In this document: one piece after another, positions 1 to 48,091 of the stretch
How the letters are laid out: the number at the start of each line of letters is the position of its first letter
Numbering within the stretch: the stretch's first letter is position 1
Source: Zancudomyces culisetae HAW-14-8
Lineage: Eukaryota; Fungi; Kickxellomycota
DNA length: 64,000 nucleotides
Assembly (NCBI GenBank): GCA_052426225.1
Contig: JBNJNM010000006.1
Span: forward strand, 1,922,001 to 1,986,000
Direction of reading: 5' to 3'
Notes under the pieces: model-generated
What the model was told of the DNA's origin: nothing
Seen by the model: only the letters and a program-made list of their open reading frames with translations
The model's database searches: none
Translations under genes and position numbers: made by a program

Positions 1-990
1 TTTAGCCGCTCTTAAAAGGTCAAAAACGACTTTTAAATCTTTTAAGTGAGTTTCTATACTATCCGAAAAAACTACTATGTCATCGATAAAAACTACAACT
101 GATTTCCACAAGACGGATCCTAGTACCTTTTCCATAAGCCTCTGAAAAGTTGCGGGACTATTAGATAATCCGAAGGGCATCACGTTGTAGCAAAATAATC
201 CCTCACCTGGAAAAGAGAATGCAGTTTTATGTTTATCGGCTTCCTTGATACGGACTTGCCAGAATCCTGACAATGCATCTAATACGCTGTAGATAGTGGA
301 TCCTGCTAGAGCTTCAAAAATGTCTTCTATTACCGGTAGTGGGTAATGGTCCTTTTGGGTCACAGCGTTCAATCTTCTGTAGTCTGAACAGATTCTGATA
401 CCTCCGTTCTTTTTCCAAACGGTCACAACTGGTGCACACCAGTCTGACTTGCATGCCTCAATGACTCCGGCCGTTTCCATGCGTGATAACTCTTCCCTGA
501 CTAGCTGCTTCATTGCTTGCGGTACACGATAGGGTCTCAACTTGATCGGAGCGTTGTTTCCTGTTTCGATCTCATGTTCAATTACATCAGTAAATTCCAA
601 TTCTGTTAGGTCATTCGCCAATATATCCTTATTGTCTTCAAGTAGTTCTGAAATCCTAGAATCTGTTACGAGATCTGCACCAGCGTTCTCTACTCTGCAT
701 ACCTCCTTGGCTATACTTATCATAACTTCATTCCTCAGCTTATCCTTATCTTTACTTAGTTCGAGTGGGACAACGAGGGAATCCTCGTGGACTGGCAGTA
801 TAAGCTCCAAGGTGTTCAAGTCAATTACTGCCGCATGCGTTTTAAGCCAATCTGTACCTAATACCAGTGACTCATTTTTCCCTTCCATTTGTAGTAAGTT
901 TGCGTCAAATCTTATCCCTTTAACTTCCACGGGTACATCTGAGATTTTGTTGGATACATAATGGTGTTTGCCATCAGCTGTTAGTATTAC
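1..990 (-). mobile_element. Ty3/gypsy element A pol fragment (C-terminal half of aspartic protease plus reverse transcriptase); runs off the window edge and is cut at 991/992 by element B
   Basis: Manual minus-strand translation reads VILTADG...LVLGTDWL (protease C-terminus), then CAPVVTVWKKNGGIRICSDYRRLNAVTQKDHYPLP...LDALSGFWQV...MPFGLSNSPATFQRLM...VFIDDIVVFS (RT core). Absent from the ORF track because no stop falls in the window. Confidence 0.92.
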
Positions 991-991
991 C

Positions 992-1478
992 TGTTAGATA
1001 CCAATATTATACACTATAATATTGATATTAACTAATTAACACACAGTTAATTTATAAAAGTTATTATTAATTATACTAGTTTAAAACACACAGTAATAAT
1101 ATAATATTAGTTAATAATATCTTTATTATTGTTAAACGAGATTGACAAACTTAATTGTTCATGAAAGGGATTAGTATTACCTTTTATACAATTAAGTTTG
1201 TACTAAAACTTTAATGTAAACTAAAACTATTAATATAACTAACATTAATAAACAAATAAACTAATATCATTAATATACACAATATTAATGATGATACATT
1301 ATATATTGATCATGTGTATCAATATTAATGTTTTAAACTAATTATTAAGTAATAATTAAATAATATAAACTAATAATTAATTAATATTAATGATACACAT
1401 TTAATATCATTAATATTAATTAATACCATATTGTATTTTAATATACAATATTGTTATGATACATGTGTATTCATAACA
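992..1478 (-). mobile_element. 3' LTR of chromovirus element B (487 bp)
   Basis: TGTTA...TAACA termini; adjoins the polypurine tract and lies about 35 bp after the pol stop; its distal end breaks the element A reading frame. Confidence 0.85.
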
Positions 1479-1490
1479 CTACCCCCCCTC
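1479..1490 (-). promoter_or_regulatory. Polypurine tract (plus-strand priming site) of element B
   Basis: Minus strand reads GAGGGGGGGTAG directly before the LTR TG. Confidence 0.85.
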
Positions 1491-1514
1491 TTAAGGTTAC
1501 TTACTAAGTGTGTA

Positions 1515-4500
1515 TTAATCTGACTCGCGTTCGTTTTCGATCTTACTGAGCCAAAATTCTTGTATTTTTTCGTGAGCGTTAACATCCTGTTCACGCTCCC
1601 AACTTCTTTCTTCTGGTCCATATCCTTCGTAATCAATGTAATAATATGTGGTACCATCAATTTCTTTTGTATCCAAAATTTTGTTCACAACATACTCAAT
1701 TTCATTATTGATGATTACTGGTGATGGTGGTCTGATGTTTGGTCGTATCACTAATTCTGATGTGTGATATTTTTCTAGTAATGATACATGAAATACTGGA
1801 TGTATCTTCATGTTTGGTGGTAATTGTAATTTGAATGTAGCATCATTAATCTTGCTTATAATTTTGTATGGACCAATCTTTTTGTTATCCAATTTGTTGG
1901 AGGGTCTGACAGTTTGTATATTTTTTCGTATTAGCCATACTTTATCACCTATTTTGAACTTTGGATGTTGTTTTCGCTTCCTATCAGCAAACTTTTTTCC
2001 AGTTTTAATAGCATTTTGTAGTTCTTTTTTGATGTCGTCGTGATGTTTTTCCAGTTCTATAACACGGTTTTCAGCACTTGGTATTAACTCTATTGATGGT
2101 ATTTGCGGAGTAAATGAAGTATCAAAACCATATAATGCTTTAAATGGTGACATCTTTATTGCACTGTGATAAGCATTATTGTATGAATATTCAGCTAATG
2201 GAAGTAATTTGCACCAGTTATCTTGCATATAATCACTGTAACACCTCAAATATTGCTCCAATGTTTGATTAGTACGCTCAGTTTGACCATTAGTTTCAGG
2301 GTGATAAGCACTAGAAAGTTTTATTTTTACGTTTAAAAGTTCGTAAAAACGCTTCCAAAACTTGCTTATAAACTGAGATCCTCTATCAGAAATGATCTCA
2401 TCAGGTGTACCATGTAGTTTAAACACGTTTTTAATGTATGCAGTAACAGTTTCGGGTGAAGTCGGTAGCTTTTTAAATGGTATAAAGTGAGCCATTTTAG
2501 TATATCTATCAACAATAACCATTATTGTTGTATACCCATTTGACTTTGGTAAATCTGTAATGAAGTCCATAGTTATAGATTTCCATGGTCCAGATGCTAT
2601 AGGTAACGGTTGAAGTAATCCATACTGTTTATGTCTATTACTTTTATTTTTTTGACATACATCACACGTATTTATGTATTCTTTTACATATTTCATTTTT
2701 TGTTTTATAAAATAGTTTCGATCCAAATTTTTTATTGTTTTTTGTATCCCATAATGTCCAGCTGCACCTGAATCATGAACTTCTTGAAGTAATTGCATCC
2801 TTAGTACATCAGGTACATATATTTTTTCATTAATATAGATTAATCCATTTCTTTTTATAATGATATCAGTATCTTTTAGTTGTTGTTTTAAATCATTTTT
2901 ATCAATATTATTCTGCTCAATATATGTTTTAATGTTGTTTAAAAGTTCAGATTGTGGTATTATAATTGCATTAATAAAGTGTTTTCCCTCAATAATATTG
3001 TGATTTAAAACTTTTGAATCATCACTATTACTATATCTTGAAAGTGCATCAGGTTTACCACTTTGTTTTCCTGGTCTGTAGGTGATGTCAAAGTCATATT
3101 CATATAGTAATAAAGACCATCTTGCATGTCTTCTGTTCAATATTTTTGCATTTTTAAATGATTCTAAATTCTTATGATCAGTATAAATGATGAATTTTTG
3201 TGATGCTCCTTGCAGGTAATGTCGCCATTCTTTAATTGCATTTATGATTGCTAACAGTTCTTTGTCATATATATCATAATTTATTTCAGCTTTATCCAGT
3301 TTATGAGAGTAATATGCACATGGAGCGAGCATCCCATCATCATTATATTGTGATAAAATAGCTCCAATAGCATAATCTGAAGCATCAGTCTCAACTATAA
3401 ATTGTTTTTCAGGGTTTGGATATTGTAATATTGGTGTAGATGTCAACATATTTTTTATTGTATCAAATGCATTTTGCTCTTTGGATGTCCATTCCCACTT
3501 TTTATCCTTTTTTAGCAATTCTGTAAGTGGTCTTGTAACCTTGGAAAATCCTTCAATAAACTTCCTGTAATAATTTGCGAAGCCCATAAACACTTGTATA
3601 TCTTTTGGTTTTGTTGGTGTATCCCACTCATGCACACATTTAGTCTTTTCTGGATCAGATGATATGCCTTTATCACTAATAATATGACCTAAAAATGTCA
3701 CTTTTTTGACGTCAAACTCGCATTTTTCGAGTTTACAATACAGTTTATGCTTCCGTAACTTGCTTAAAACATTTTTAACATGCTCCGTATGTTGATGTAT
3801 ATCAGGTGAAAAGATTAGTATATCATCTAGGTATGATATTGCGTAAACATCCAATATATCTCTTAGTACATCATTAATAAAATGTTGAAAAGTTGCAGGT
3901 GCATTAGTCAATCCAAATGGCATAACTTGATACTCGTAATGTCCATATCTGCATCTAAAAGCGGTTTTAGGTTCATCGCCTTTTTTTATTCTGACCAAGT
4001 TATATGCACTACGAAGATCTAATTTTGTAAATATTCGTGCATCCTTTAATCTATCAAACACCTCATCAATTCTAGGCAACGGATACCTGTTTTTAATAGT
4101 GTTTTCATTCAGTTTTCTGTAATCTACACACAGTCTTAACTCGCCAGATTTCTTTTTTACAAACATTATAGGCGCACCATAAGGTGATTTTGAATGCCTT
4201 ATAAATTTGTTTGCAAGATTCTTGTCGATGTACGACTTTAATTCAGTGAGTTCAGTTTGCGATAGTGGGTATATTGGCCCCCAAAACGGTTTAGAATCTT
4301 CTTTTAAATCGATTCTACAGTCATATTCGCGATGATTTGGCAATATTTCAGCCATTTTTTCATCAAAGACGTCAGTAAATTCAATATATTTTGTAGGTAT
4401 AACAGTAGTAGTAGGAATAGTTACAAATTTGTAAACATTTGAAACAGTTTTGATGTCAGTATCATACTTGAAAAGTATTTTTTTTTCCATTTTTTCATCA

Positions 4501-6323
4501 ATATTTTCATTAATATTTTGTATATTTTCAGTTGAAAAATCATCAATATCCATTGAATTTGTATCATTTTGTATTTTAAAACAATTATCCAAGTTATCTA
4601 GAGTTGTTGCTGTAGTATTAGATGTCATAGGAGTAACTTGATTAGCAGATGGAATAACTATAGGGGTTCTTTTTTTGATATTTTTAACTTTTATAGGCTT
4701 AAAAGTAGGTGTTGATATTGGGTATAACTCTGCATCAAGGTCAAGATTTTTAGTAGTTGTAGTTTCAGTAGTTGGTGTAAATGTATTACTATCAACTTGG
4801 GTAGTTTGAGGTTCAATGGATGTTTCCTTTGTATTTTTTAAATCAACTTTAGTTAATATTTTTTCAATATTTTCTGTATTATTTGTATTTTTTCTTAAAT
4901 TTTTTGTATTTATTCTTTGATAAATATCAGTTGTAATACTTTCAGGTGTGTCACTATTTGTGTTTGAGTTTATGTCTGATGTATTTTCAGCAGCACATGC
5001 TGGTTTGGTAGTGTTATCTTCAATATTTTCATTCATTTTTCCATTTTTAAACTCATTATTATCACTTTTTCCATGAAAAATGATACTTTGATTCTTTTTT
5101 GTAATGTCAATTATTTTTTGTTCTTCATCTTCGCTATCGGATAAAATATATTTTTCTTGTATCTCTTTTATGTTTTGCAAATACATTTGTTGTACGAGCT
5201 TGTTCAACTCACTAGAAGTCATGTTTTCATCAAATTCAATGTCATATTTGTTGAATTTTTTAGCATTTTTAGTTGTATTTTCTTCAATATTTACTTGTTT
5301 TTGTGCATTAATATCCGAATTATTAGTATGTAGTGGACTAAACATGTCATGATCTAGTAAGTATCCATAATTACTATAATCATCTGTTTGTACGGCTTCA
5401 GAGACCTTGTTTTTCTCACGTGATACTTTTTTCTTTACTATATTTTTCATCTTATTTTTTGTTTTTGCACCCGTTTGTGCTACGTTTTTTCCTGATGTAA
5501 ACAAGTATGATTTGATTTTAGACATAATAGTGTTAGAATGTTCAATATCAGATTCTGAAGTGTTGTTTTGTCCAAAATATCTGCTGTTATCATCACTTTT
5601 TTCACTATTTTGATCACTATTTTCACTTATTTGATCGTTATTTTCATCCTCGGATGATACTTCTGGTCGATATATAATATCTACAGGTCTCTTGTGGTGT
5701 ACACAATTGTTCAAACAGTAATTTGAATTAAATAAGATGTCGAAAGTATCCCAATTGATACTTGGATTGTGCTTTTTTAACCATGGCATGCCCAAAATCA
5801 CATGACCATGAACAGATTGAATTGGATGTAAGTTGATGTTTTCTGTGTGATCATTTCCAATTGAAACTTTGATATCATTGTATACATGATTAATACTAGT
5901 TGTACTAAGCATGTTACCGTCAATAGATTCAATACTGAATGGGATGTCAAGTGGTGAAGGTAATAATCTTAACTTTTTTGCGACATTAATGTCGATAAAG
6001 TTCTCAGAAGAACCACTATCAATGAGGCAGTCAACTTGAAATGGTTCTGTGATGTCATTAAAAATATTTACAGAAATAATTGGTCTGTTATATGATGATT
6101 TTGTGTTGTTTTTACTGCAAAACACGTTATCCATAACATGTTTTTTAACCATATTTTCATTTATTTTAAGATATTTTTTATCATTATTTTGTTGTTTAAT
6201 CATTGTATTGTTGCACTCAGCATACAGATGACCTTTTAAATCACACTTAAAACATTTTCTGTTGTTATATAAGTTAATGTTAAGACTTGAATATTTTAAG
6301 ATTAAGTTATTTATTACTATTAA
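1515..6323 (-). mobile_element. Chromovirus (Ty3/gypsy) polyprotein: CCHC knuckle-protease-spacer-RT-RNase H-integrase-chromodomain
   Basis: 1562-aa ORF with LIDSGS protease, YLDD RT, ETDASDYAIGA RNase H, HHCC and DFITDLP..SDRG..E integrase, GPY module and chromodomain EYVVNKIL..YEGYGPEERSWE. The frame stays open upstream of ATG 6203 to about 6323 and encodes CFKCDLKGHLYAEC (6213-6254). Confidence 0.95.
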
Positions 6324-6687
6324 TTATTTAGAAAAATATGGTATTCAATAGCGAATAAGATATTTTTCTCTGAAGTTCTCTTTCGATGAATTTCGAAAGG
6401 GTTTTTATACTTTTACTCCAGAGATTTTTCCATATAAAATTTTCTTAAGTAAAGTTGCTATCAAACTATAAATTTGACTATTAAACTTATGAGTAACTGA
6501 TGTGATTAACTACTGCGAGTTTAGTGTGTCAATGATTGCGTCATTCATGTTATTCTGACAATTCTTTGAATTATTAGTTTCGGAATTCTTTCTAGGTTTC
6601 TTATTTCCTAAAATGGTCTGTGAATATTATTATAACAAATTTCATCGCGAAATTCATTTTTTACTTGACTTGGTTAGATTAATTTAA

Positions 6688-6760
6688 TAATTTGTACTTA
6701 GTTACATTTAATTAATTTGTACTTAGTTACATTATAGTAATTTGTATATGGTTACAATTT
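6688..6760. repeat. Short tandem repeat (TAATTTGTACTTAGTTACATT x2 plus one degenerate copy) in the gag/pol junction region
   Basis: Directly visible direct repeats about 25 bp apart. Confidence 0.7.
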
Positions 6761-6815
6761 CATTTTGTAACCTACTTGATTTGGTCATGGAGAATTATAA
6801 TAAACATGAATTTAT

Positions 6816-7628
6816 TTAATTTATTTTAAAACAATTCCTAACATAGTTGTTAGTGTTATATCTGTTTTGGGGCCGATTCCTTTGGTTAGTAACTTCTAGT
6901 AGGCATGTTTTTAGATCATTAAACATGAATAAAAGTTCCTCATACTTTTTATCTCCTTCGTTTTTAACGGGCTCTGAACTTATTTGAGACTTAATTGTGG
7001 TGCATATTTTATTTAGTCTCTCGGTTTCCATAATGGAGGTAATTGCCTCTTTATATGTTTTGCACCTATCACTCAATATTCCTTTTTGTGCTTCCGGGTC
7101 CATGGCAGCAAAAAGTAGTTTAAACTTTATTGCATCATCTGAAATTTTAGCTGTATTAAAGAGCTTTTCAATTTTTGAGACTAGCTCTTCCACGTCTTCT
7201 TCGGGTGTCTTTTTAAGCAGCTGTAACTGGTTCCAGGCTATAAGTTCACCTTCAGGACCTTCAAACTGAAGTATGAACTTGTTTTTGATTTCACTCCAAG
7301 TGTTATCTTCGCTACACTCGCGTTCAAACCATAGTAGTGCACGACCTTCGAGGTATAATTCCATAAGATCTACCATATCTTTATCTTTCCAACCATTTCT
7401 TCTAGCACACAGTTCATATCTTCTAATCCATTTAGATGGATCCATATTGGAGTTTGTGCTGAAAATTTCTGGTTCAATCAATTTGTAATTAAGAATCATA
7501 GGATTACACATTGTTGGTGCAGTATTATCACTGGCCTGATTTTGTATGAGCCTCTGCTTTTCTTAGTGTGTTTCAACAGCCTTTTCTGCCACTGCTTTTG
7601 CGGACGACTTGATTGCTTTTTCTGACAT
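6816..7628 (-). mobile_element. Retrotransposon gag (capsid) of element A, with a premature stop and truncation at the zinc knuckle
   Basis: DPSKWIRRYE..NGW..YLEGRALLWF..WSEIKNKF capsid pattern; in-frame ATG at 7628 with TAA at 7563-7565; ORF ends RNCFKIN* at the first Cys of the expected knuckle. Confidence 0.85.
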
Positions 7629-7670
7629 CATTCTAATTTTTACTTATTTATTAAATAATACTATTTGTTA

Positions 7671-7688
7671 GCCTAGCTGGGAGCGCCA
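7671..7688 (-). promoter_or_regulatory. Primer binding site of element A
   Basis: Minus strand TGGCGCTCCCAGCTAGGC starts 4 nt after the LTR CA end and is complementary to a tRNA 3' end ...CUGGGAGCG-CCA. The isoacceptor is not determined. Confidence 0.8.
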
Positions 7689-7692
7689 AAAC

Positions 7693-8219
7693 TGTCGTAT
7701 AAAATTTACTATTGTTGCTATGTATACGATTTATTGTGAAATTTGAAGGTAAAGAACGAAACAGAGGAAATTAGCTTTGCTTATATCTAATTTCCGTTGT
7801 ACTAATAAATAAGTTTATACTAATAAATACTACTAAAAGTTAGGATAATAAGTAATTGTTAATTTTGCTCACAATAGGATGTTCGGTTGATCCTATTGTG
7901 AGAAGATTAACCGCCGATCCCGCGATTCTCTCTAGGAAAATCTTATTGTGTAAATTTTCCCGACACAACAACAACATGTTGTATGCTTAGTTCTATCCAA
8001 GCTAAACTATTGGATAAACAGCATACAGCTTCTCAAACACCGAATAACCACCGTTATCTCGGGTGTTCGAGCTAGTAATCTGGGATTACTAGGGTGAAAT
8101 TATCACCCAAAAAGTGAGTCAATATTAAGTTTTGATTATTTTATTTTAAGTTTCTATTATATAAAGTTCTAATAAAATAGCTAGTCAGGTACTAGTATAT
8201 TACTAGTAACCTCACCACA
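7693..8219 (-). mobile_element. 5' LTR of element A (about 527 bp)
   Basis: TGT...ACA termini (plus strand tgtcg...ccaca), adjacent to the PBS. The outer boundary is inferred from termini only because the partner LTR is outside the window. Confidence 0.72.
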
Positions 8220-8673
8220 AGTTTGGTGGTTTTATCTTTTTATTTTTAAAAGTTATTCATTAAATAAAATACAAATTAGCTCTAAAATACTTGATTTTAC
8301 TCTATAAAATTGAAATTTGTGATTTGAGCAAAAACCTACCTAAAACCAAAAAAAAACATAGGTAGTGAAGCGTAACACAATTTTCAAAGGGTATCAGAAA
8401 GGTATCAGAGTCTAATTTTTGGACCAAAATTAATTGTTTTGCACACCAAATTTTAGGAGTTGGGCGTAATTTTACCCAGTTTTATCGCATTTATTGAAGT
8501 AATAAATACATAAAACTAAATTAAATATAAGCTAAAAAGGTAGGGTTGACTGGTTAAATAAAGTAAAACTTATTCCAGTAATAATCCCCCTCTATTAGCA
8601 GAACTTTTTGTAGGTTTAGTTGCGGAAATTTCCTGAGAAATTTTGTGCAAACTAAAATTACAACAAACACAAC

Positions 8674-8746
8674 GCCTTCTTGGCTCAGTTGGCAGAGCGT
8701 CTGCCTAGTAAGCAGAAGGTCGTCGGTTCGATTCCGACAGAAGGCA
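8674..8746 (+). tRNA. tRNA-Thr(AGT)
   Basis: Acceptor stem GCCTTCT/AGAAGGC, A box TGGCTCAGTTGG, anticodon arm TCTGC-CTAGTAA-GCAGA, B box GGTTCGATTCC; 73 nt; T6 Pol III terminator just downstream. Confidence 0.97.
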
Positions 8747-9933
8747 CATTTTTTAAACATTTTTCATATATAATTTATATTTTTACACTATTTTTTCTTT
8801 ACTAAACATTATTAGTTTATATTATTTTTACAGAATCATCTATAATATTACAAAGTCGTTATTTCGATTTATCTCTCTTTCCAATAATTTTCATAATTTC
8901 ATTATTAATTATTACACTTTATCAACTAATTTAAAGATGTTAATGTTGAATTTTAACTCTAGTTTCAATATTAATAAGATTAAATTAATGTTCTTATTGT
9001 AATAATAGTAGATGTATTAAGTTATCTGATATATTTTTCAGCTAATGTGATGGCTGAGTTTGGTATTGCACTGATTGTGTCAGTTATACTCAGGTCTCGG
9101 ATCACTTAACTAGTTCTGTTTGCCGTAATATGAATGTTTTTAATAACTTTTATTATTGTTGTAATAATAATAAAACACAAAGTAAACTATCTCAATGTAG
9201 TGTTAATTTCAATTACTAAGTATGTAAAAAACGTATATGTAAAGTATATTCTCATAAGAAAGGCTCCCCCTGTTTATTTTCGTTGTCCACTTCGCTTTTA
9301 TTCACTGATCGTTCAGATGTTCACTTTACTATTATAAATATTTAGGTATAAAATAACTACAAGTTAATTGGTAGTTATATTATGCTAAGGAATCGCAATT
9401 GATTCGCTAGCAAAAAGTATGTAGCCGTTATGCTACAATATTTAACTTGATAATTTTTTATGAACTTTGTATAGCTCAGATCTTATGGATCTTAGTATCT
9501 AGTCTTATAATCCATTTTTGTGTTATCACCTTATGCTCAATTTATTTTAATTTACTTGTATATCTTATATTTACTATCGCTAAATGGTTAGATTTATTTC
9601 AGTTTGCATGTATTTCATGTTTTTAATACCTATTATTTATCTTTTAGAATTATTTCAATTTAATTGGTTATTAGGTGTATTTGTTTTAAAACATAATTTG
9701 CTATCAAAAAGTTATAAAACCTAATACTCCAAAATAGCATATTCGGTTTGGAAGTATTTTTGACCAATTAGTTTCTACGTCATTAATTTAATTGCCTTCA
9801 CTCATTTTTTTTAGACTATTTACCCCAATTAAACATATATTAATATTTTAACAATTATTTATAAACCATCCTGGTTTTTTATTTTTCTTTAATTTATGTT
9901 TTGTGAATTGAGCTTTATTCTTGAGATTCGAAA

Positions 9934-10419
9934 ATGACTCGTAAGTTATCTATAACTTTGTATAATGATATATACTTAACTTTTTGTTACTATACTAGGC
10001 GGAAATCAAAGAGATCTAGCAAGAGAAAAAAACAGAAAAAAACTAGAGAAACTGGCCAAGGGTCAGAAAAAGGATGATATAAGTTTGACCTCTAGAAAAG
10101 AAAGGTACTTTCTATACTTTTACTGCCATTTACTGTTCAATATTAACATTTTTTTTCTAATAGGGATGCAGAAATCATGAGGCAGAAGCAACTTGTAAGA
10201 TTTTTTTCCTATATTCTTTTGTAATTCATTTTAGTTTTTATCTCATTTTAATTGTCCAAGTACTATATGCTAATTATCTTTTATTGTTTATATTTTAGAA
10301 AAAGCAGCAAGAGGTAATCTAAATTTAATTTCAAATTTACTCTATATTCACCCAGATTTATTATACAATAGAAAGAGGCCGGCTCTGCTTCGAGTACTTC
10401 ACAATCCAAACCCAAATAA
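9934..10419 (+). CDS. SERF/4F5-family small EDRK-rich protein, 5 exons (9934-9940, 9999-10104, 10164-10194, 10299-10313, 10372-10419)
   Basis: Spliced product MTRGNQRDLAREKNRKK...RKERDAEIMRQKQ has both SERF signature motifs; all four introns are GT-AG. Confidence 0.92.
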
Positions 10420-10589
10420 ACCTTTTGTGATTTATTCACTGTTTTTCTCTTTGGGAAATGTTTATTTTTATCGTATTTTTAAAGTATCTTTTTTCATTTA
10501 TCTCTGAAAAATATTTTGTTAGGCTACCCTCACTTTATTTTGGTTTGATTTCTTTTGCTTATATTTGAATAAACCTGATTGTAGCCTAT

Positions 10590-12672
10590 TTCAATCAATC
10601 TTTTCGGAATATTTTGAAAGATCCCGCACTAAATGCGATCGTTTCTTCTTCCTAGAGCTAACCACTAACAATGACAAAATTCAGCTAGTATAATATATAG
10701 TCTCGGTTTATTAAACCTGGACTTCTTTTTATTAATCGAGCACTGTAAAAAGTTGCATTTAACGCTTCAAAAAATACTGACAAAATCCCTACAATTGCCT
10801 ACGCTGTCAATACTCAGTTCATCATCTTCGCCATTTTCGGAAATTGGTTGATCAAGAATCATCGTTGGTTCCTTTGATTCTGCTACAAAATTTAATGTAT
10901 TTCCCTTTTTAGTTTTCCAAGTCTGCGCACCCACAACTTTTTGTAGCTCATCTAACCCAGAACCTTTTTTACTATTTTTATTTAATCTCTTAGGTAAGGT
11001 CAGCTTGAACTTCTTTTTCCTTTTTGTAGGCTTTATTGTTCTAAACTGAGAACTTGCCCCAAGATCGTTTGTGTTATCTGAAAGTAGAAGCTTAGGGCTA
11101 TTCTTTCCCATACCATCAAGTGGTAGGTGAATTAATTCTACACCGCTATAAATACATCTTCCTTTGGTTGATTTTTTAATATTTCTCTGATGACTTGCAT
11201 ATCTATCTAACTTTTTTTTGCGTTTGGTCTTGTTTTCTATATTGCTTCTATTTGTACACAAGCTATGTTTATTAATCTTGTTGAATTCTTTTTGTTTCTG
11301 ATAATAAAAACATACATTTTTATGAGTCCAATGTTCATACTTGTTTCAGCTAAGTGAGTATCCCCATTTATGTTGGAAGGCTTGAAAAAATACTCTTGCT
11401 CAGCTTTTACCCTAGGAGAATTGGTATCATAGGTTGATTCATGCTTTTTCGTTTTTACATTTGTATCTTTTTTTTTTAATATAGCTGTTATGTTGCCTAT
11501 CATGTATATATTTTTATTTAATCGTTAATATAAGGGTAAACTATAATTATTGAGTTTAGACGTTTCAGCTCACGGTTGTTCTCGGATTTGGTTATATGTT
11601 CTGGAATATCTTTTGTAACTGTGGGGACATTATCCTCAATTGCTCTGATAACTGTATAGGTTTAAACTTGTGTTAAAATTAGAAATTCGTGTTAGTGTTT
11701 AAAAGCCAGAATTTATGTTTACCTGTCCTAATATTCTCCTTTGACACATTGCACCTTTTTCTCCGCTCCTTATAGGTGACTTGTGTTACTGAACTGTATT
11801 TATTATTCATAGTTAGTGTATTTTCACTGTATGAAAAAATATATTTTTTAAAACACTTGTATAAATCCATCTTAATATATTGATCTTGAATTTTAGAGTT
11901 GAAGTAGGCCATAATGATAAAATTGCATATGTACAATGCCTTAAACATTATATATATTGATTTTTCTCAAAGTCGATTTGTCTCTTATTTTTTTCAATAC
12001 AATCGTTGTAACTCTCAAATTTGTTTTAAGCGGATAGTAGAATACTATGCTTAAATGCTATCTTTGTTACCTAGTGACAATTTTTTGACATTAGCTAGAT
12101 TTGAATTTGGAACTTCTGGATATTACTTTTGTTATCCAAACCATTGGCATTTATACAATATTGTTCTGAAGTATGCACAAAAATTACATATTAGATAATG
12201 ACAGTATTTTTTTTAATCTTTTTCAATTCGATTTAGTAAAATAGTTATACTTGTGAAATGCAAATCTCAAGTTAGATCGCAGAGTAATGCCTAAACATGT
12301 CAGTTTATGAACTTTTTTTACCTCCACAAAATTATTCAATCTGTAGGTATAACAACTATTGCAAAATAGATATATTTTTTAAACTGATGCCACGGCAGTG
12401 ATTATGGGCATTTACCACTTTCATAGAAATATTAGGGAAAATTTGGCATTAACCTGTTTTGGAGTTCAGCTCACAAACTATGTCTGCCTAAATAAGTACA
12501 TTTAGCCCTATTAGCTTGTGTTACATTTTTTTAGTAATAAACAACGAAATCTCACAACACAGATTTGGGTGAATTATGCACAATCTTTTGATCTAGCGTT
12601 CCAGAGCCAATTGGCCACAAATGTTTTGCTTATTTTTGAGACCTCAGATTGATTTGAACTAAATTCTACCAT
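10590..12672 (-). CDS. Hypothetical multi-exon Lys-rich protein; exon structure unresolved
   Basis: Chain of minus-strand ORFs (10767-11261, 11237-11503, 11679-11948) with splice-like boundaries and a candidate first exon MVEFSSNQSEVSKISKTFVANWLW at 12672. No family recognised. Confidence 0.35.
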
Positions 12673-30550: not shown

Positions 30551-33500
30551 ATGGAAACACAAATGATGGGAAATGTCCAAGTGCTAAGAGCAGAGGAGAT
30601 AATGAGCAAAAAAAGAGCCAGTCCAGAGGCATCTGGGGGTTCTGGAAGCGATCTTAGCTTAGGGCTGCAGAATAAGGATAAAAAGGAGATGGTTGGACAA
30701 AAAAAGGTTATATTGTGTGTGATTGTAATCGAAAACTCAAAACGAATAGAAAGTGTTTTTCCAAAGCTTTATAGCGAGGTATTAGAGAAGATTATAAGGT
30801 GAGTAAGGTGAAATAAAACATGATAAACAAGAAACGGGGAAAGCAAGAGAGGGAAAAAATGAGAGCAAGATACTAACTAAAAAATCAATAAATGTAGAGA
30901 GCTGAGGACGCCAGTGTTGGTGACGGGTGTAAACGTACCAATAAAGGTGACACCAGTGGTTAAAATAGGAGTGGTATTTTATGGGGATTACTCGCCAATG
31001 TCAAACAATGCGGTGTTATCAAAGTACTTTACGACGAACTATCGAAAGTTTGGGATAGAAATGCTGAGACATGAGTTTGATGTAGGAGGGCATATCAGGA
31101 GCGCGGTTTTGGAGGGGTTGGTAGGAGCGCTTGAAATGATGGATGACTTTGCGGATTTTGATGAGGATGCAAAAATAGTAGATGTGCACTCTAAACATTG
31201 TGTAGTGGTGGGGGGAGCATTGCCGTACGGAATTGAGGGCCTGCTTATGCAAGAGCTAGCGGGAAACAATGGTGATGAGAGCAGTGCCAGACTAATACAG
31301 GAGCTTGGATGGAGACAGACGGGTGTAGGAGTGTTGGAAGAGTACTGTCGCGAGAACCAGCGAAGAGAATATGATGGAACAACGCTGTCTAAAGCATTGG
31401 ATTTGATTAGACAGCGGGCGGTGAATTTTTCAGCGGTTGCGCTAACCAGTAAAGAAGGAGAATATTTCAGAGTGATGATCAGAAAGGGTAGCAGTTCAGG
31501 TCGGCAGCCGGTTCTAGTTCCTAGTGGACAGACAGGAGGATTCCCGCTGTATACTACAAATATAAATATTGGACAGTCAGAGGCTGAAGAAGAGGAGGTA
31601 CTTGGCGGACCAGAAAAGAAAGTAAAGATAGACTCTACAAGCGAGGCAACGAAAATTCAGGAGGTAGAAAGTAGAAATGATACAACTACAGTCACAAACA
31701 CAACAGTAACAGCAACAGCAACAGCTACTCCAGCTGCAGTTCCAACTACGGGAGTAGTGGCGGACACGACCGCGGGTTCGGCTGCGAGTTCAGGAGGAGA
31801 GGCGCAAGTGGATGAGTCGGGTATACAGAACAGAGATGGAGCGCCTGAGTTGGGTGTTTCAACAGCAACGACAATAGCAACAGGAGCAGGAGCAGGAGCA
31901 GGAACAGTAGCAACACCAACAGTAATAGCCACACCAACAGAGGTACAGCAAGATTCAAGAGGAACTAGTGAGAGTCGGAGCGTGGAGGGAGGTGAGGCAG
32001 CAGGAATAATGCCATCTATATCACGTAGGGGCCGGGGAAGTAAGGCGGCATCGAAAAAGGGATCGCCTCGCAGTACCAAGATGGCCAACAAGAAAATGGC
32101 ATCGATATCACCGGCACCAGTTAGTAAAACTGAGGGAGGAATTGGAGAGAGGCCAGTACAGACACAAGAGCAAATGGCCAATGCGGCTGCAATGGTGATG
32201 GGTGGAGAGGCAGGTTTGGGTGCGGGGCTTGCAATAAACACACGGGTAGGAGCATTAGCGACACCAAATGGCGCAACAGTTTCAACACCAGCAGTAGGAA
32301 CGCCAGTTATACCCATAACAACAGCAACAGTAACAGGTGCAGGTGCAGGTGCAAGTGCAGGGCAAACTCAGAACCAGGGACAGGAGGGTGTACCAACAGC
32401 AACAGCAACGCCAACGCCAACAGTAACCACAGCAGCGACACCAGTAACCACAGCAGAGGCAGCAGCAACACTTTCAGCCTTTGTGACTAAGATCAAGGCG
32501 CTAGAAGCCCAGATTTCACAAGTTGAACAGCAACAACAGGTGCGGGTAAGTCAACTACAAAAGTTACAACAGGTCGAAGAGTTCAAAAACACGCCGGGGG
32601 GTACAACAGCAGCACAAATGGCACAGGCAGCACGACAAAAGGCCCTGTTGGTTCAGGAATGTAGAAACATGCAGATTATGCAGCAGACGCTTGTACAACA
32701 GTTGGGAGCAGCTAAACAGCAGTTGCTTCAACACCCACTTTATAATCAAATGCTGAAACAACAACAGTTACAACAAGCTCAGCAACAACAACAGCAACAA
32801 CAAGCTCAACAGCAAGCTCAACAACAAGCTCAGCATCAGGCACATCAACAACAACAACAACAACAGCAGGCTCAACAACAAGCTCAGCATCAGGCGCAAC
32901 AGCAACAACAACAGCAACAGCAGGCTCAGCATCAGGCGCAACAGCAACAACAACAGCAACAGGCTCAACTCCAGCTTCAACAACTTTTGAGTCAACAACA
33001 AAAGTTAAAGAACAGAGAGCAACAAGGACAAGAAAATTCGATGATGCAGAACCCATTGTTTGCACAACTACAAAACCAACTGCAAACACAAACACAAGCA
33101 CAGATACAACAACTTCAAGAGCTACAAAGTCCTCAATTGGTACAGACAGGAGCAACTCCAATACCAACATCACTACCAATGTCGGGAAATAAAAGCCAGG
33201 AAAATATTATGGGTTCGCCAAAGGCAGTGAGGCAGCTACAACAGCTACAGCAAAACACGATGTTTTCAAAGACAGTGACACCATCGCCTAGCGGAGGGAC
33301 CAATTTGATGATGCAAGGAAGTATGAGTGAGGGACAGAATCAGATGGCAGGGTTGAGTGCAGTAATGGCTCAACAACAAAAGAACAAGTCGCCAATGGAT
33401 CAGCAACAACAAGCACAACAGCAGCAGCAGCAGCAGGCTCTTCAGAGGACAACATCAAACCAGCAAGTACAACAACAACAACAACAACAACAAGGACAGG

Positions 33501-35599
33501 GACAGGGACAGGTGTATGCACCAAGTCCAGCGGTTGGTCAAATCACACATCAACAAGCAGTCCAAACAGTTGTAAGGTTGTCACAAATGGTTAATCGAGA
33601 ACCCAAAGTGGTGGTGGCGATGAGTGCGACAGAACTAGCCAATTTATTGCTGGTTTCCAACGCTCAAGACAAGCAGCAAAGTCTTTCTACAGCCCAGCAC
33701 GTGCTGTTGAACACGTTGACTAAGTATCGTGCGCAGTACAACGACAATGAGGTGTTTATGCAGTCGATAGCGGCGGCGGCAGCAGCAGCACTGGCTCAGC
33801 AAGAAGGTAACAAGGGGGTGCCACGACCAGAGGCAGGCGGCGAAGTTGTACAGCAGAAGATGAACTTGGGAGGGCGTGAGCATCAGAAGGCGGTTGAGTC
33901 ACCAAAGATAGCAGAGGGAGCGCCAAAACACCAAAGCATGGTTCAGTTTGGCACGGGCAAAACCAACCATTTGCTTAGGTCGGATACGGGAGATTCATTC
34001 CAAGTGTCGAATTTCTGGAAGGGAGTGATTATCAGTGCAGCACGGACGCCAAATGGCAAGCTGACAGAAATGGTGATTCCAGCAACGTCAATAGCTATGG
34101 CAAGCGAAGGTAATCTGATCAGCGATTGTGTGATCAGCCAGTGGCCGGCCCAGTTAAATGTTACAGGGCTGCTAAACATCAGTGCGTCGCAGGTTAGCGA
34201 GTGGGCAAAAGTGGTGCGAGTGCCACAGGTTGTTTTTATTCGCAGTTCCGATGCAGAACAAAAGTTGACGGGTGCGGCGTTTGGGGGATACACGCTGTCG
34301 CAGAATGAGTTGTCGTACAATTTTGATTCGTTTTGTTCCACGCTCAAGCAAGGTTCGTATGTCGGGATCATTCGGTTCAACGAGCCATCGGCACGGCCGG
34401 GAGAGTTGTTTGGTATTATGTTGGTTCCACTCAACGAGTCACTGCTTGGATTTGTGTTTCTCAAACAGCCAATTCCAACTCATTTCTGTGATATGTCTAG
34501 TCAGCTGACACCTGCCATTTCGGCCCAGAAATTGATTACTCCTCAGCTCAAATCGGCTGAGGTTATGAATACGAATATGAATACGAATATGAATATGGCT
34601 ATGGCGATGAATACGTTTAGTCCTGGAACCAAGCATTCCCAACCACTTTCTTCATCTGCTGTAAATGCCAATTTGTTGTCTCCAAAATCCAAAACTCAAA
34701 CTCCTTTATCTGCAAGTACTCCTCTAACTATTTCTTCAAATATAGCAAATACAAATATTCAATCTGAACTAATTCAACAACAACAACAACATCAACAATT
34801 ACAACAACAACAGCAGCAACAACAACAACAACAATTACAACAGCAGCAGCAACAACAGGCTCAACAGGCCCAGCAACAACAACAACAAGCACAGCTTCAG
34901 CAATTACAACAGCAGCAACAGCAGCAGCAGCAACAGCAGCAACAACAACAACAACAACAGCAGAAATTACAGCAACAACACCAACAAGCTCTTCAAAGAG
35001 CAATGTCAAACCACCAACAAAACTCAGCATCACTTGGCCAAAATCTGTTATTTAATTCTTCAGATCTTTCAGCTGAAACGTCTTCATCTAAACAGTCAAA
35101 CATAAACCCTGGTTCTACTCAGTTTGCTAATCTTGCATCGCCTGCCCAACAATCCAACTTTTCGATTGGGTATAATTTAACTAATGCCTCTGTAAACTCT
35201 AATGCCAACTCTAACGCTGCTTCCAATGTAAATCCAAACACAAATCCAAATGCGAATGCGAATGCGAATGCGAATACAAACACCAATTCTAATTCCAATA
35301 GTGCAGGCACAGGCACAGGTACAGGTACAGGTACAGGTACAGCTACTCCCAGTATTGGTTCCAATTCCAACACAACGGCCAATGCCAATGCGGGTGACTC
35401 AATAATGTCATCAAATGTTTCGTCTACACCAAACTTACAACAGAAACAGAGCATATTATCATCAACGGCAACAACAGCCAGCCAACAAATCCAGTTGTTC
35501 CAACAACTTGTGCAGCATTATGTTACTCAGGGATATTCCTTGGCTCAGGCGCAACAAAATGCCAAGTTGCAGATTCAATTTCATTTACAACAACAAGCT

Positions 35600-35632
<33 letters not shown>

Positions 35633-37186
35633 GCTCAGCAAAAAGCCCAGCAGTTACAAAAGCAACAACAACAACAACAACAAGCTCAGCAGCAACAACA
35701 ACAAGCTCAGCAACAACAGTTACAACAACAACAACAACAACAAGCACAGGCTCAGGCACAAGCTCAGGCACAGGCTCAGGCTCAGGCTCAGGCACAGGCA
35801 CAAGCACAAGCACAAGCGCAGGCACAAGCACAAAAGGCCCAACAAGCTCAACAACAAGCTCAACAACAACAAGCCCAACAACAGGCCCAACAAAAGTCTC
35901 AACAGGACTCATCATTGTCTGCATCAGCTGCCTCACCAGTAGACTTAGTTTCGTTGTTTGCTGCAAATGGTATCAATTTATCAACTGATCAAATTAACCA
36001 GCTTCGTGCTCTTCATCCATCTCAACAAGCTACTTCCCTACAAATTCTTTTGGCCCAGAAACAACAACAGCAACAACAACAACAACAACAACAACAACAA
36101 GCTCAGCAGCAGCAACAACAGCAACAACAGCAACAACAGCAGCAACAACAAGCTCAACAAGCTCAACAACAAGCCCAACAACAAGCTCAACAGCAAGCTC
36201 AACAACAAGCTCAGCAACAACAAGCTCAACAACAACAACAACAACAGGCTCAGCAGGCACATTATATGTCAGAAAATAAAAGCACAGGCAGCAATGCCAA
36301 CATGAGTTTAAACAATCCACTGGCTCAGCTGAATATCCAATCGCTTAACAGTTTATTTGCTAATGCTAACGCGGGTGGAAATGTTGGTAATCTTCCTAGC
36401 TCTCTATTACTGAATAACCTCAATGCCTTGGCCAATTCTGGAGCCAAACAGAATGTCATGAGCTCTGTTCATTCGCTATCTCAATCACATCAACATGGTC
36501 AAAACCAAAGCCAGGCTCAAAGCCAAAATCAGAACCAAAGCCAAAACCAAAGCCAGAGTCAAACTCAAAACCAAAACCAGTCCCAAACTCAAGCACAAAC
36601 TCAAGCACAAGCACAAGCACACGCTACACATGCCGCTGCTCATTCACATCTACGTGGTACTCCGTCATTATCTGCCCAAAACCCAAATACCAATGCCAAC
36701 ATGGGGATGGGTGTAAACATGAATGCAATGAACATGAACGCAATGAACCTTGGCGGGCTGGGTGGACTTGGGATGAACATGGGGGCGATTGGTATGAATC
36801 CCACAGTTTCTTCTGGGGGGAATTCTGGCGGGTTTAACATTTCTGCGGCAAACCCACTTGTTTCCCCTCTGCTGCAATCTGGACTTCTTTCTGCTGCTGC
36901 AGTAGGCAATCCTAATGCTGCTGAGGTTCTGCTAGCATCCCACAGCCAAAACGCGAGTGCTGGTGCTTCGTCTGCGACTCCTGGTGCTTTAAGTACTCCC
37001 GGAATTACTGCCAACACAGCAACTCCTACTCCTACTGCTGCTAATGCCAATCCCAGTGCGAATGCAAATGCAAATGCTAATGCGAATGCTGCTACACCAG
37101 GATATGGTCTCAATAACATTACTCCCCAACAGTATCAAATGTGGCGCCAGTGGCAGCTTTCACAGAACCAATTTTTCAGGCCTTAA
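30551..37186 (+). CDS. MED25: Mediator subunit MED25-like protein (VWA domain, ACID-like domain, very long polyQ/QA tracts), about 2180 aa, intron 30799-30897
   Basis: VWA: CVIVIENS..VFPKL..IGVVFY..FDVGGHIRSAVLEGLVGALEMMDDF..KHCVVVGGALPY. ACID-like: FWKGVI..WPAQLNV..VGIIRF..MLVP..LLGFVF. Start codon uncertain (30542 or 30551). Confidence 0.75.
32755..36260 (+). repeat. Coding CAA/CAG polyglutamine and QA repeats (about 32755-33000, 33400-33510, 34774-34990, 35588-35905, 36056-36260)
   Basis: Directly visible trinucleotide and hexanucleotide repeats. Confidence 0.95.
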
Positions 37187-46313: not shown

Positions 46314-47395
46314 TTTTCTTTTAAAAGTTTTAAAACCAACGTTATTTTGATAATTCTCCTTAAACATGCTTTTTTTTTCTGTTCATTTCACTACTTTTAA
46401 CCTTTTGGAGCTTTTTTTTTATGACCTTATCGAGAAGGGATGAAAAGAACACTGCATTTAACCGCCGCCCCTTTCAAGATTTTTTTGATCATTCTTTTTT
46501 TGGTGCCCAAAAACAAGCAAAATAATGGAAATTTCTTTAGTACTAAATGGGCGTGCAGTAACGTTATTGCATTTGTTTTCTGAAGTGAAGTTTATAATCC
46601 ATATTTTTGAAGAAAATCGCTTGTGCTATTATCGAAAGCAGCGTAAAAAGGTAGACGTACACATTTTATCGACAGTACGTCTATCAGCTTTACATTCACT
46701 CTTTGTTATAGTTTTTGAGCTTGAAATTGTAACAATTGATTATACTGGCGCTTATCATTGTTGTTTCACCAAACTAGAAAAAAAAAGTCAATACACGACG
46801 ACATATTAAGAAAAGCCAAACACACTTTGAAAAATACTTGATGAAAAGATGCACCCAGCTATACAACTCTGTGGTAGACGTGTGTGGTGCTAGTTTAAGA
46901 AGGTTACCTCGCTTTTTCTTGGTTTTCCATCCTTTAACTAATCTTCTTGATTATGGTAATGTCATACCATATCATATATGGTTCATAAATCATAAATTAT
47001 TAATAATTTAACTCCATGTCAAAAGTGGTTGCCTAGGCTTAACAGCATTTGCCTCGTGAGGCTGTGTACCTCTCTCTTGATTATCATTCTTTACACTCAT
47101 TGTGAAAGTGATAATTATTTGAGCCCATGTTGCTTACAAATTAATTCGATTTCATTTAACTGATTACTAATTTCTGTTTTTGTGCTAATTTTTGTCACCT
47201 TCCAATATAATTTCCTGAAATAAAAGTTAACGAGAATCCAGATTTTTTTCTCCGCTCATTTGCTAGTTTTTTTTTTTGGTACATCTAGCTGGATTGCTCA
47301 TATGAAAAATGTATATAAATGACTAAAAGAATTATACAGCAACGGTCTGTTTCACAGTTAGATATTTTTTATCACTAAATACAAAAAAAATAAAA

Positions 47396-48091
47396 ATGGC
47401 GCAGTTTAGCAGAGAGTTATTAACATTTTACAGCTACCGCACTTGTCCCTTTTGCCACAGAGCCGCCATCGCATTGAAAGAAGCCAAGGTTCCTTACGAG
47501 AAAGTGGAAATCAACCTCAAACAACGCCCAGAATGGTACAAGAGAGATATCAACCCATCTAACAAGGTTCCCGCGTTTAGACTCCCTGAGAGCGGAAGAA
47601 ATGGTGGTGAAATCATTGTTGAATCACTCATAGCAGCAGAGTATGTAGCAGACCTCAAGCCCGAAAGCAAGCTGATGCCAGTTGACGCGTTGGAGCGGGC
47701 CAAAGTGAGATTTTTTATCGAATCTTCTAGCAGAATTGTTACCCAGTTCAATCAGGTACTCAAGGGTAAGCCTGAAAACCGGCGTGCAGAGTGGGAAAAG
47801 GGTGTTGATGTTCTTCGGGAACTAAACATGCTTATGGAGAAGCAGTCATCAGCTGGGCCGTACTTCCTGGGAAAGGATTTTTCTATGGCAGATCTGGTAC
47901 TTATACCAATGCTTGATCGCCTGGAACTCATTGGGTCGTTCTTTGACTTCAAGCTTGATTCAAGTGATCCCACTATCTCTCGGGTCATTGAGTGGAGCAA
48001 GGCATGTAGAAGCAGAGAGAGCTACAAGGAGACTGTAGCAACTCGAGAGGAAATGGTTGAACATTATGAGCCCTTGATTTCCAAAGAGTAG
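47396..48091 (+). CDS. Glutathione S-transferase, omega/DHAR-like (CPFC)
   Basis: TCPFCHRA, NKVP, IVESLIAAEY, GPYFLGKDFSMADL; intronless; TATATAAA at about 47313. Confidence 0.92.
   Translation: MAQFSRELLTFYSYRTCPFCHRAAIALKEAKVPYEKVEINLKQRPEWYKRDINPSNKVPAFRLPESGRNGGEIIVESLIAAEYVADLKPESKLMPVDALERAKVRFFIESSSRIVTQFNQVLKGKPENRRAEWEKGVDVLRELNMLMEKQSSAGPYFLGKDFSMADLVLIPMLDRLELIGSFFDFKLDSSDPTISRVIEWSKACRSRESYKETVATREEMVEHYEPLISKE

What the first reader, a model, noticed from the sequence alone, without database searches (positions are those of the whole stretch)
7693..8219. LTR A, unrelated in sequence, shows the same back-to-back hairpin architecture
Seen: tcgtata/tatacga; ggaaattag/ctaatttcc (7766-7795); ctcacaataggat/atcctattgtgag (13 bp perfect, extending to about 7858-7911); ggaaaat/attttcc; gttgtatgct..tatccaa/ttggata..agcatacagc (7978-8029); ctcaaacacc..gggtgttcgag; ctagtaatc/gattactag (8072-8092); gggtga/tcaccc; actagta/tactagt (about 8190-8207). 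Several abut with 0-2 nt spacers. This LTR has more G+C than LTR B, so AT richness is a weaker explanation. Inference: two distinct gypsy families sharing this design points to a host-lineage constraint or mechanism.
Basis: partly seen in the sequence, partly recalled or inferred. Interest (0 to 1): 0.78.

Follow-up and report, generated by a model that had tools for sequence, protein, structure and literature searches.

The report
Hairpin-packed LTR of gut-fungus retrotransposon
The terminal repeat of a jumping gene in an insect-gut fungus is packed with back-to-back hairpin-forming inverted repeats whose pairing is kept in a second copy by matched changes, which likely reflects folding needed during the element's copying cycle, although a mutational by-product is not excluded.

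Summary
All ten listed arm pairs are present, and 7693-8219 folds far better than shuffles (z -9.5 sense, -6.6 antisense), whereas 83 AT-rich host tiles never pass -2.2. The sequence is the 5' LTR of a defective Ty3/gypsy element of Zancudomyces culisetae. The LTR is 973 bp (7693-8665), not 527, and ends 8 bp upstream of a tRNA-Thr gene. One diverged copy from a public run shows two clear and one realigned compensatory double change plus one A-U to G.U change, with no sense-strand pair broken. There is no G.U excess, so the folding is strand-neutral. The unrelated LTR B is equally folded (whole-LTR z -10 versus -8), while 7 whole control LTRs score -3.9 to +0.2. However, 7 of 40 control LTR starts pass z -3 and three show similar back-to-back hairpins, so the design is not unique to this host. 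Best reading: a selected single-strand fold of the predicted R region and strong-stop DNA (0.5); the main rival is template-switch mutation without function (0.3). A host-lineage constraint rests on two LTRs in one genome. The scan noted other palindromic retrotransposon modules in other fungi, but not this one.

The parts
7693..8665 (-). LTR A, full extent (973 bp), 5' LTR of a Ty3/gypsy element; hairpins along its whole length
   Evidence: TG..CA ends with 6/7 terminal inverted repeat; contigs span 8040-8649 and diverge behind 8667; whole-LTR z -8.1
7800..8120 (-). densest back-to-back hairpin array; predicted R region (inferred from TATA and AATAAA motifs, not mapped)
   Evidence: 120-nt windows z -2.6 to -6.6 on the sense strand; tile 7921-8160 z -7.0, the lowest of the 266 tiles
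8072..8108 (-). two abutting hairpins carrying the compensatory changes (pairs 8073/8091, 8076/8088, 8096/8104)
   Evidence: differences in the X2 contig set against the predicted pair table; the third pair needs the gap at 8096 to be re-read
8157..8163 (-). TATA-like motif, candidate core promoter (inferred)
   Evidence: motif scan, (a second TATA-like site lies at 7819)
7730..7735 (-). AATAAA, candidate polyadenylation signal about 40 nt before the LTR end (inferred)
   Evidence: motif scan, (three more AATAAA lie further upstream at 8145, 8244, 8495)
7672..7688 (-). tRNA-type primer-binding site starting TGG, 4 nt after the LTR end; looks like the 3' end of tRNA-Asn (recalled, not tested)
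   Evidence: sequence; does not match the neighbouring tRNA-Thr and has no 8-nt complement in the LTR
6837..7631 (-). gag of family A, with an in-frame stop near its start and cut off after about residue 266
   Evidence: Pfam Retrotrans_gag; 99% identical to Z. culisetae AX774_g752 and g753
6330..6837 (-). AT-rich non-coding spacer belonging to element B's side of the junction; weakly folded
   Evidence: z -2.4; contigs of two runs stop matching at 6837 and one runs on to 6295; no capsid homology
1515..6323 (-). chromovirus-type ORF of element B: zinc knuckle, protease, RT, RNase H, integrase, SH3, chromodomain
   Evidence: Pfam; translation
992..1492 (-). polypurine tract (1482-1492) and LTR B (992-1478), the second hairpin-array LTR
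   Evidence: an X3 contig stops matching at 991
1..990 (-). protease-RT fragment of a non-chromoviral Ty3/gypsy element interrupted by LTR B
   Evidence: 98% identical to AX774_g3639, whose gag is only 34% identical to gag A
8674..8746 (+). tRNA-Thr(AGT) gene, 8 bp from the U3 end of LTR A
   Evidence: ARAGORN, Rfam, gap measured

Best explanation
This is the 973-bp terminal repeat of a Ty3/gypsy retrotransposon of Zancudomyces culisetae, built of abutting inverted repeats that likely fold in the single-stranded RNA and strong-stop DNA of the replication cycle and are likely kept by selection. Shown: the LTR identity, the folding excess, its restriction to LTRs, paired changes in a second copy, and strand neutrality. 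Inferred: transcription starts near 8115-8140 and polyadenylation follows the AATAAA at 7735, giving a roughly 400-nt R region that coincides with the densest array. By analogy with structured retroviral R/U5 regions (recalled), such stems would sit at both ends of the genomic RNA and in the complementary cDNA, where they would help strand transfer, block self-priming, or hide or present the poly(A) signal. Pure Watson-Crick stems fit a fold that must work on both strands. Template switching likely supplies the one-step double changes.
For: Folding z -9.5/-6.6/-7.7 against host and coding tiles near zero. In the X2 contig, 4 of 4 changed sense-strand pairs with both sides covered stay paired: two T-A to A-T doubles, one G-C to A-T double after re-reading a gap, one A-U to G.U; the other changes of the diverged block fall in positions unpaired on the sense strand, except 8070, whose partner is not covered. 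A crude independent-site null gives about 1e-5 for 14 pairs all canonical with three doubles. The array peaks between the TATA-like and AATAAA motifs. Benachenhou 2013 (PMC3601003, passages) links residual conservation in long R regions to stem-loops. LTR A has no tandem repeats except one 21-nt row, so its stems are not copies of one unit.
Against: No G.U excess: G.T versus A.C interruptions are 7:5 in LTR A and 10:14 in LTR B at core 5, and LTR B folds as well on the antisense strand (-8.4 versus -7.8). Covariation comes from one contig of depth 6.4, confined to a 70-nt block; one of the three doubles depends on my realignment. Two doubles are transversions, which template switching makes in one step without selection (PMC8794818, abstract and opening text). 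In the one LTR B variant, the only changed pair with both sides covered is broken (1191/1155). The U3 part, present only at the RNA 3' end, also folds. No start site, poly(A) site or expression was measured.
Confidence: 0.5

Rival explanations
1. Mutational by-product: local template switching during reverse transcription or replication keeps creating and repairing perfect inverted repeats, and they persist only in LTRs because coding regions purge them; no function is needed.
For: Strand-neutral, Watson-Crick-only stems and exact base parity (A=T=180, C 84, G 83 in 7693-8219). Transversion doubles. The mechanism is described as creating and maintaining hairpins (PMC8794818, abstract). The non-coding spacer of element B is also mildly folded (z -2.4, stem coverage z 3.0).
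Against: Most control LTRs pass through the same cycle and lack arrays (0 of 7 whole LTRs below z -4; 2 of 41 with stem-coverage z above 3). The A-U to G.U change and the loss of an antisense-only stem at 8117-8137 in X2 lean to the sense strand, though on few sites.
Confidence: 0.3
2. Double-stranded DNA function: the inverted repeats are palindromic binding sites for host factors or cruciform-forming promoter parts, exchanged between subfamilies by recombination.
For: Strand neutrality. A TACTAG/CTAGTA motif occurs three times each near the predicted promoter. Mosaic differences near 8070-8138 in X2 and behind 8102 in X4 resemble Tf1/Tf2-type U3 mosaics (PMC10085805, passages).
Against: Arms are separated by loops of 3-30 nt and differ in sequence from stem to stem; X2 changes the arm sequence at two positions of one motif while keeping the pairing, which a sequence-specific site would not require.
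Confidence: 0.12
3. Host-imposed constraint: a Harpellales RNA-surveillance, 3'-end processing or silencing pathway forces unrelated retroelements to fold their ends, so the arrays are convergent counter-defence.
For: Two unrelated families in one genome are both extreme (z -8.1, -10.3) against 7 whole control LTRs.
Against: Two LTRs from one genome, chosen after the fact; unrelated elements L003, L036, L061 have similar U3 arrays; controls are not matched for G+C; no host factor was examined.
Confidence: 0.08

Closest known systems
Ty3/gypsy (Metaviridae) LTRs as modelled by Benachenhou et al. 2013 (PMC3601003; passages read)
   Same: TG..CA short inverted repeats, TATA-like and AATAAA motifs, adjacent primer-binding site; the paper ties long R regions to stem-loops.
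   Different: The passages read describe single stem-loops (U5-IR, PPT hairpins, priming hairpins), not an array of unrelated abutting hairpins along the whole LTR.
Structured R/U5 regions of retroviruses (HIV TAR and poly(A) hairpins, HTLV Rex-response element; recalled, no call)
   Same: Tandem stems in the repeated part of the LTR, present at both RNA ends and in strong-stop DNA.
   Different: Here there are about ten short stems in the predicted R and more in U3, no G.U excess, no Rfam match and no known trans-acting protein.
Conserved Hairpin Site of fungal GalEa Copia elements (Donnart et al. 2017, PMC5445492; abstract only) and self-priming hairpins of chromoviruses (passages)
   Same: Hairpin linked to a fungal LTR retrotransposon end.
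   Different: Those are single hairpins that replace a tRNA primer-binding site; element A keeps a tRNA-type site with no complement in its LTR.
Tf1/Tf2 and Tosmo1-3 mosaic subfamilies (PMC10085805; passages)
   Same: Near-identical stretches next to strongly diverged blocks close to the U3-R border; shared pol with gag about 34% identical.
   Different: No hairpin arrays are described in the passages read; the mosaic here is seen in two short contigs only.
tRNA-gene-targeting Ty3 and DGLT-A (PMC6101501; passages)
   Same: LTR end directly upstream of a tRNA gene.
   Different: 8 bp here against 13-18 bp for DGLT-A and about 15 bp for Ty3; a single insertion, and a second junction (X1) shows no recognisable tRNA gene in the 30 letters displayed.

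Membership tests
Ty3/gypsy LTR retrotransposon LTR | TG..CA termini with short inverted repeat | tested here: met
   6/7 match for 7693-8665
Ty3/gypsy LTR retrotransposon LTR | primer-binding site after the 5' LTR, followed by gag | tested here: met
   TGG-starting site at 7688-7672; Retrotrans_gag; cognate tRNA not found in the window
Ty3/gypsy LTR retrotransposon LTR | second direct copy at the 3' end behind a polypurine tract, with target-site duplication | tested here: inconclusive
   no second copy in the window; no genome held; other copies of the LTR exist in runs X1, X2, X4
Ty3/gypsy LTR retrotransposon LTR | pol order protease-RT-RNase H-integrase | tested here: inconclusive
   met for element B and for the relative P0137, whose gag is 32% identical to gag A; A's own pol is not shown with certainty
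Conserved functional RNA structure (retroviral R/U5-like) | folding energy beyond shuffles | tested here: met
Conserved functional RNA structure (retroviral R/U5-like) | compensatory base changes | tested here: inconclusive
   2-3 doubles in one contig of LTR A, one broken pair in one contig of LTR B; template switching not excluded
Conserved functional RNA structure (retroviral R/U5-like) | sense-strand bias (G.U over A.C) | tested here: not met
   7:5 in A, 10:14 in B
Conserved functional RNA structure (retroviral R/U5-like) | transcription through the array, mapped start and poly(A) site | not testable with these tools
   only contigs of DNA-type runs were available
Hairpin-primed (self-priming / CHS) elements | no tRNA primer-binding site; site complementary to the element's own RNA | tested here: not met
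   tRNA-type site present, no 8-nt complement in LTR A
tRNA-gene-targeting retrotransposons (Ty3, DGLT-A) | most insertions within a narrow window upstream of tRNA genes | tested here: inconclusive
   1 of 2 junctions seen lies 8 bp from a tRNA gene

The most novel reading that the evidence does not exclude
Unrelated retrotransposon families of Harpellales gut fungi have converged on LTRs folded end to end into strand-neutral hairpin arrays, kept by compensatory change, because a host pathway acting on the ends of retroelement RNA or cDNA demands it; family A in addition targets tRNA genes independently of Ty3 and DGLT-A.
Probability: 0.12. Interest if true: 0.75.

Novelty: new variant of a known kind. 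Interest (0 to 1): 0.42.

Why it matters
LTRs are usually treated as fast-changing promoter sequence with a few motifs. An LTR whose whole length is constrained by pairing rather than sequence would give a natural system to separate selection on single-stranded replication intermediates from template-switch mutation, and would add a structural feature for finding LTRs. If most Harpellales families share it, it would point to an undescribed host pressure on retroelement ends. As it stands the finding is a real but function-less description in defective copies.

Tried and rejected
No whole genome is held for this window, so no LTR library could be built. Exact 21- and 22-nt LTR A patterns found 0 matches in viral contigs and metagenome contigs. 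The pol fragment 1-990 found no related locus in viral contigs. No RNA holder was listed; this says nothing on expression. Run X5 gave only short chance matches. Rfam found only the tRNA in 1-12000. AT richness was rejected (83 AT-rich host tiles, minimum z -2.2). A tandem-repeat origin was rejected for LTR A but not for LTR B, whose AT-rich part has several rows. The 8219 boundary was rejected. Self-priming was rejected for A. A G.U excess was sought and not found. The idea that LTR A, gag A and pol B form one element was rejected: gag A breaks from AX774_g753 at the junction and the LTRs are unrelated. Whether pol 1-990 is a third family or a mosaic sharing A's pol stays open. A GST search for host identity returned no named close relative. 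Paper searches for such arrays listed nothing that describes them; the library lacks most subscription papers, and no supplements were read.

Full report
Setting. The first 8.7 kb of the window is a cluster of defective Ty3/gypsy pieces on the minus strand: LTR A, a primer-binding site, gag (7631-6837), an AT-rich spacer (6837-6330), a chromovirus-type ORF (6323-1515; protease, RT, RNase H, integrase, chromodomain), a polypurine tract, LTR B (1478-992) and a protease-RT fragment (990-1). Gag A is 99% identical to Zancudomyces culisetae AX774_g752 and AX774_g753, which lie on one 8.4-kb contig, so the host is this Harpellales fungus and the family has several copies. Gag A follows AX774_g753 to residue 266 and then breaks at about 6837. 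The 990-1 fragment is 98% identical to AX774_g3639, whose gag is only 34% identical to gag A: either a third family or a Tf1/Tf2-like mosaic (PMC10085805, passages). Neither LTR has a second copy in the window, and they do not resemble each other.

Observation. The stretch 7693-8219 folds with z -9.48 (sense RNA), -6.62 (antisense RNA) and -7.68 (sense DNA), 0 of 100 shuffles as good each time. I tiled the window into 266 tiles of 240 nt, 20 shuffles each. The 226 host tiles beyond 9600 average z 0.05 and 1 is below -3; the 83 with GC under 34% reach only -2.2; 26 retroelement coding tiles reach -2.3. The lowest tile is 7921-8160 (-7.0). Tile z values from 15-25 shuffles are noisy: two LTR A tiles gave -3.0 and -2.2, and -4.7 and -8.7.

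True extent. Contigs of four public runs were laid on 1-10000 and of four runs on 7540-8720. An X2 contig matches 8040-8649 over its whole length, an X1 contig matches 8043-8234, and another X1 contig matches 8602-8667 and then leaves. An end at 8665 gives a 6/7 terminal inverted repeat, the best of five candidate ends. The LTR is therefore 973 bp. The added part folds too (z -4.2 and -3.7) and starts with a hairpin. The U3 end lies 8 bp upstream of tRNA-Thr(AGT). On the sense strand a TATA-like motif starts at 8163 and the last AATAAA at 7735; the densest array, about 7800-8120, lies between them and would be a long R region. This layout is inferred from motifs only; other TATA-like and AATAAA motifs exist.

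Covariation. The X2 contig (depth 6.4) has 19 other letters and 3 gaps, 18 of the letters listed, nearly all in 8070-8138. Against the sense-strand pair table, 8073/8091 and 8076/8088 both change from T-A to A-T. The tool reports a deletion at 8096 and a change at 8104; re-reading the gap into the loop turns this into a G-C to A-T double. The change at 8212 turns A-U into G.U on the sense strand. The change at 8070 is in a stem whose partner is not covered. The rest are unpaired on the sense strand, and they destroy a weak stem predicted only on the antisense strand (8117-8137). A crude independent-site null gives about 1e-5 for 14 pairs all canonical with at least three doubles. The 3 listed changes of an X1 contig (7755, 7756, 7765) are unpaired. 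Against this: it is one contig, and in the one LTR B variant (6 substitutions and 1 deletion listed) the only changed pair with both sides covered is broken, 3 changes are unpaired and 3 have uncovered partners.

Strand. Single interruptions of stems are G.T versus A.C 7:5 in LTR A and 10:14 in LTR B (core of 5), with no significant excess at any core size. LTR B folds with z -7.8 sense and -8.4 antisense. The arrays are thus almost pure Watson-Crick and would fold on RNA, on either cDNA strand, or as cruciforms.

Controls from other organisms. Scans with chromovirus pol gave 108 loci; 2 without LTRs were dropped, 57 of 106 had a polypurine tract followed by TGT, and 40 of these had at least 200 nt of LTR start. 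Their mean z is -1.3, minimum -5.2, and 7 of 40 are below -3, against -3.0 to -4.7 for six tiles of LTRs A and B. Stem coverage exceeded shuffles by z above 3 in 2 of 41, against 4.2-4.6 for A and B. L003, L036 and L061 show abutting U3 hairpins much like those here. Seven whole paired LTRs scored -3.9 to +0.2, against -8.1 and -10.3. Of 50 end tiles of 25 circular contigs, 3 were below -3. These controls have unknown hosts, include related families, are richer in G+C, are mostly partial, and a few PPT calls may be wrong. So mild LTR folding is common, arrays occur in a minority of unrelated elements, and the two Zancudomyces LTRs are the most extreme seen.

Mechanism. I favour a selected fold of the single-stranded intermediates (0.5). 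The LTR is the only part present at both RNA ends and as free strong-stop DNA; long R regions are linked to stem-loops (PMC3601003, passages); and a fold needed on both strands would avoid G.U. The specific jobs (strand transfer, blocking self-priming, poly(A) control) are analogies recalled from retroviruses and are untested. The main rival (0.3) is template switching, which can create perfect stems and multibase compensations in single events (PMC8794818, abstract and opening text); the transversion doubles fit it, but it does not by itself explain why most control LTRs lack arrays. Palindromic promoter sites (0.12) and a host-imposed constraint (0.08) are weaker.

Novelty. Six paper searches listed no description of whole-LTR hairpin arrays or of Harpellales LTRs; I saw listings for most hits, passages of PMC3601003, PMC6101501 and PMC10085805, and abstracts of PMC5445492 and PMC8794818. 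The scan's own notes hold three palindromic retrotransposon modules from other fungal genomes and nothing for this genome or sequence. Verdict: a real feature, a new variant of structured LTRs, function unproven, lineage claim open. Interest 0.42.

Noticed in passing
window 8665-8674: The U3 end of LTR A lies 8 bp upstream of tRNA-Thr(AGT), a Ty3/DGLT-A-like position; two gag A copies share one 8.4-kb contig in the public assembly. Possible independent tRNA-gene targeting.
   Followed up: partly
window 8602-8667: An X1 contig of depth 14, higher than other LTR A pieces, continues past the LTR end into 184 other letters that begin like another LTR start rather than a polypurine tract or tRNA. 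Unexplained.
   Followed up: no
window 8001-8138: An X4 contig matches 8001-8102 without a difference and then leaves; the X2 contig is diverged only in 8070-8138. Suggests mosaic LTR subfamilies joined near the predicted U3-R border.
   Followed up: partly
window 6330-6837: A non-coding spacer joined to element B's ORF is covered by contigs of three runs, begins at the point where gag A breaks, and has several hairpins (z -2.4). Element B lacks its capsid region and 5' LTR here.
   Followed up: partly
window 9015-9442: Covered by contigs of runs X1, X2 and X4 while neighbouring DNA is not: probably another repeat family just downstream of the tRNA gene.
   Followed up: no
L003:4959-5189, L036:3431-3730, L061:4419-4720: Unrelated chromovirus LTRs of unknown hosts with abutting hairpins from the first base of U3.
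   Followed up: partly
window 47327-48091: A glutathione S-transferase ORF whose closest listed relatives are only 32-33% identical.
   Followed up: no
window 30881-37186: A 2101-codon glutamine-rich ORF with no Pfam match.
   Followed up: no
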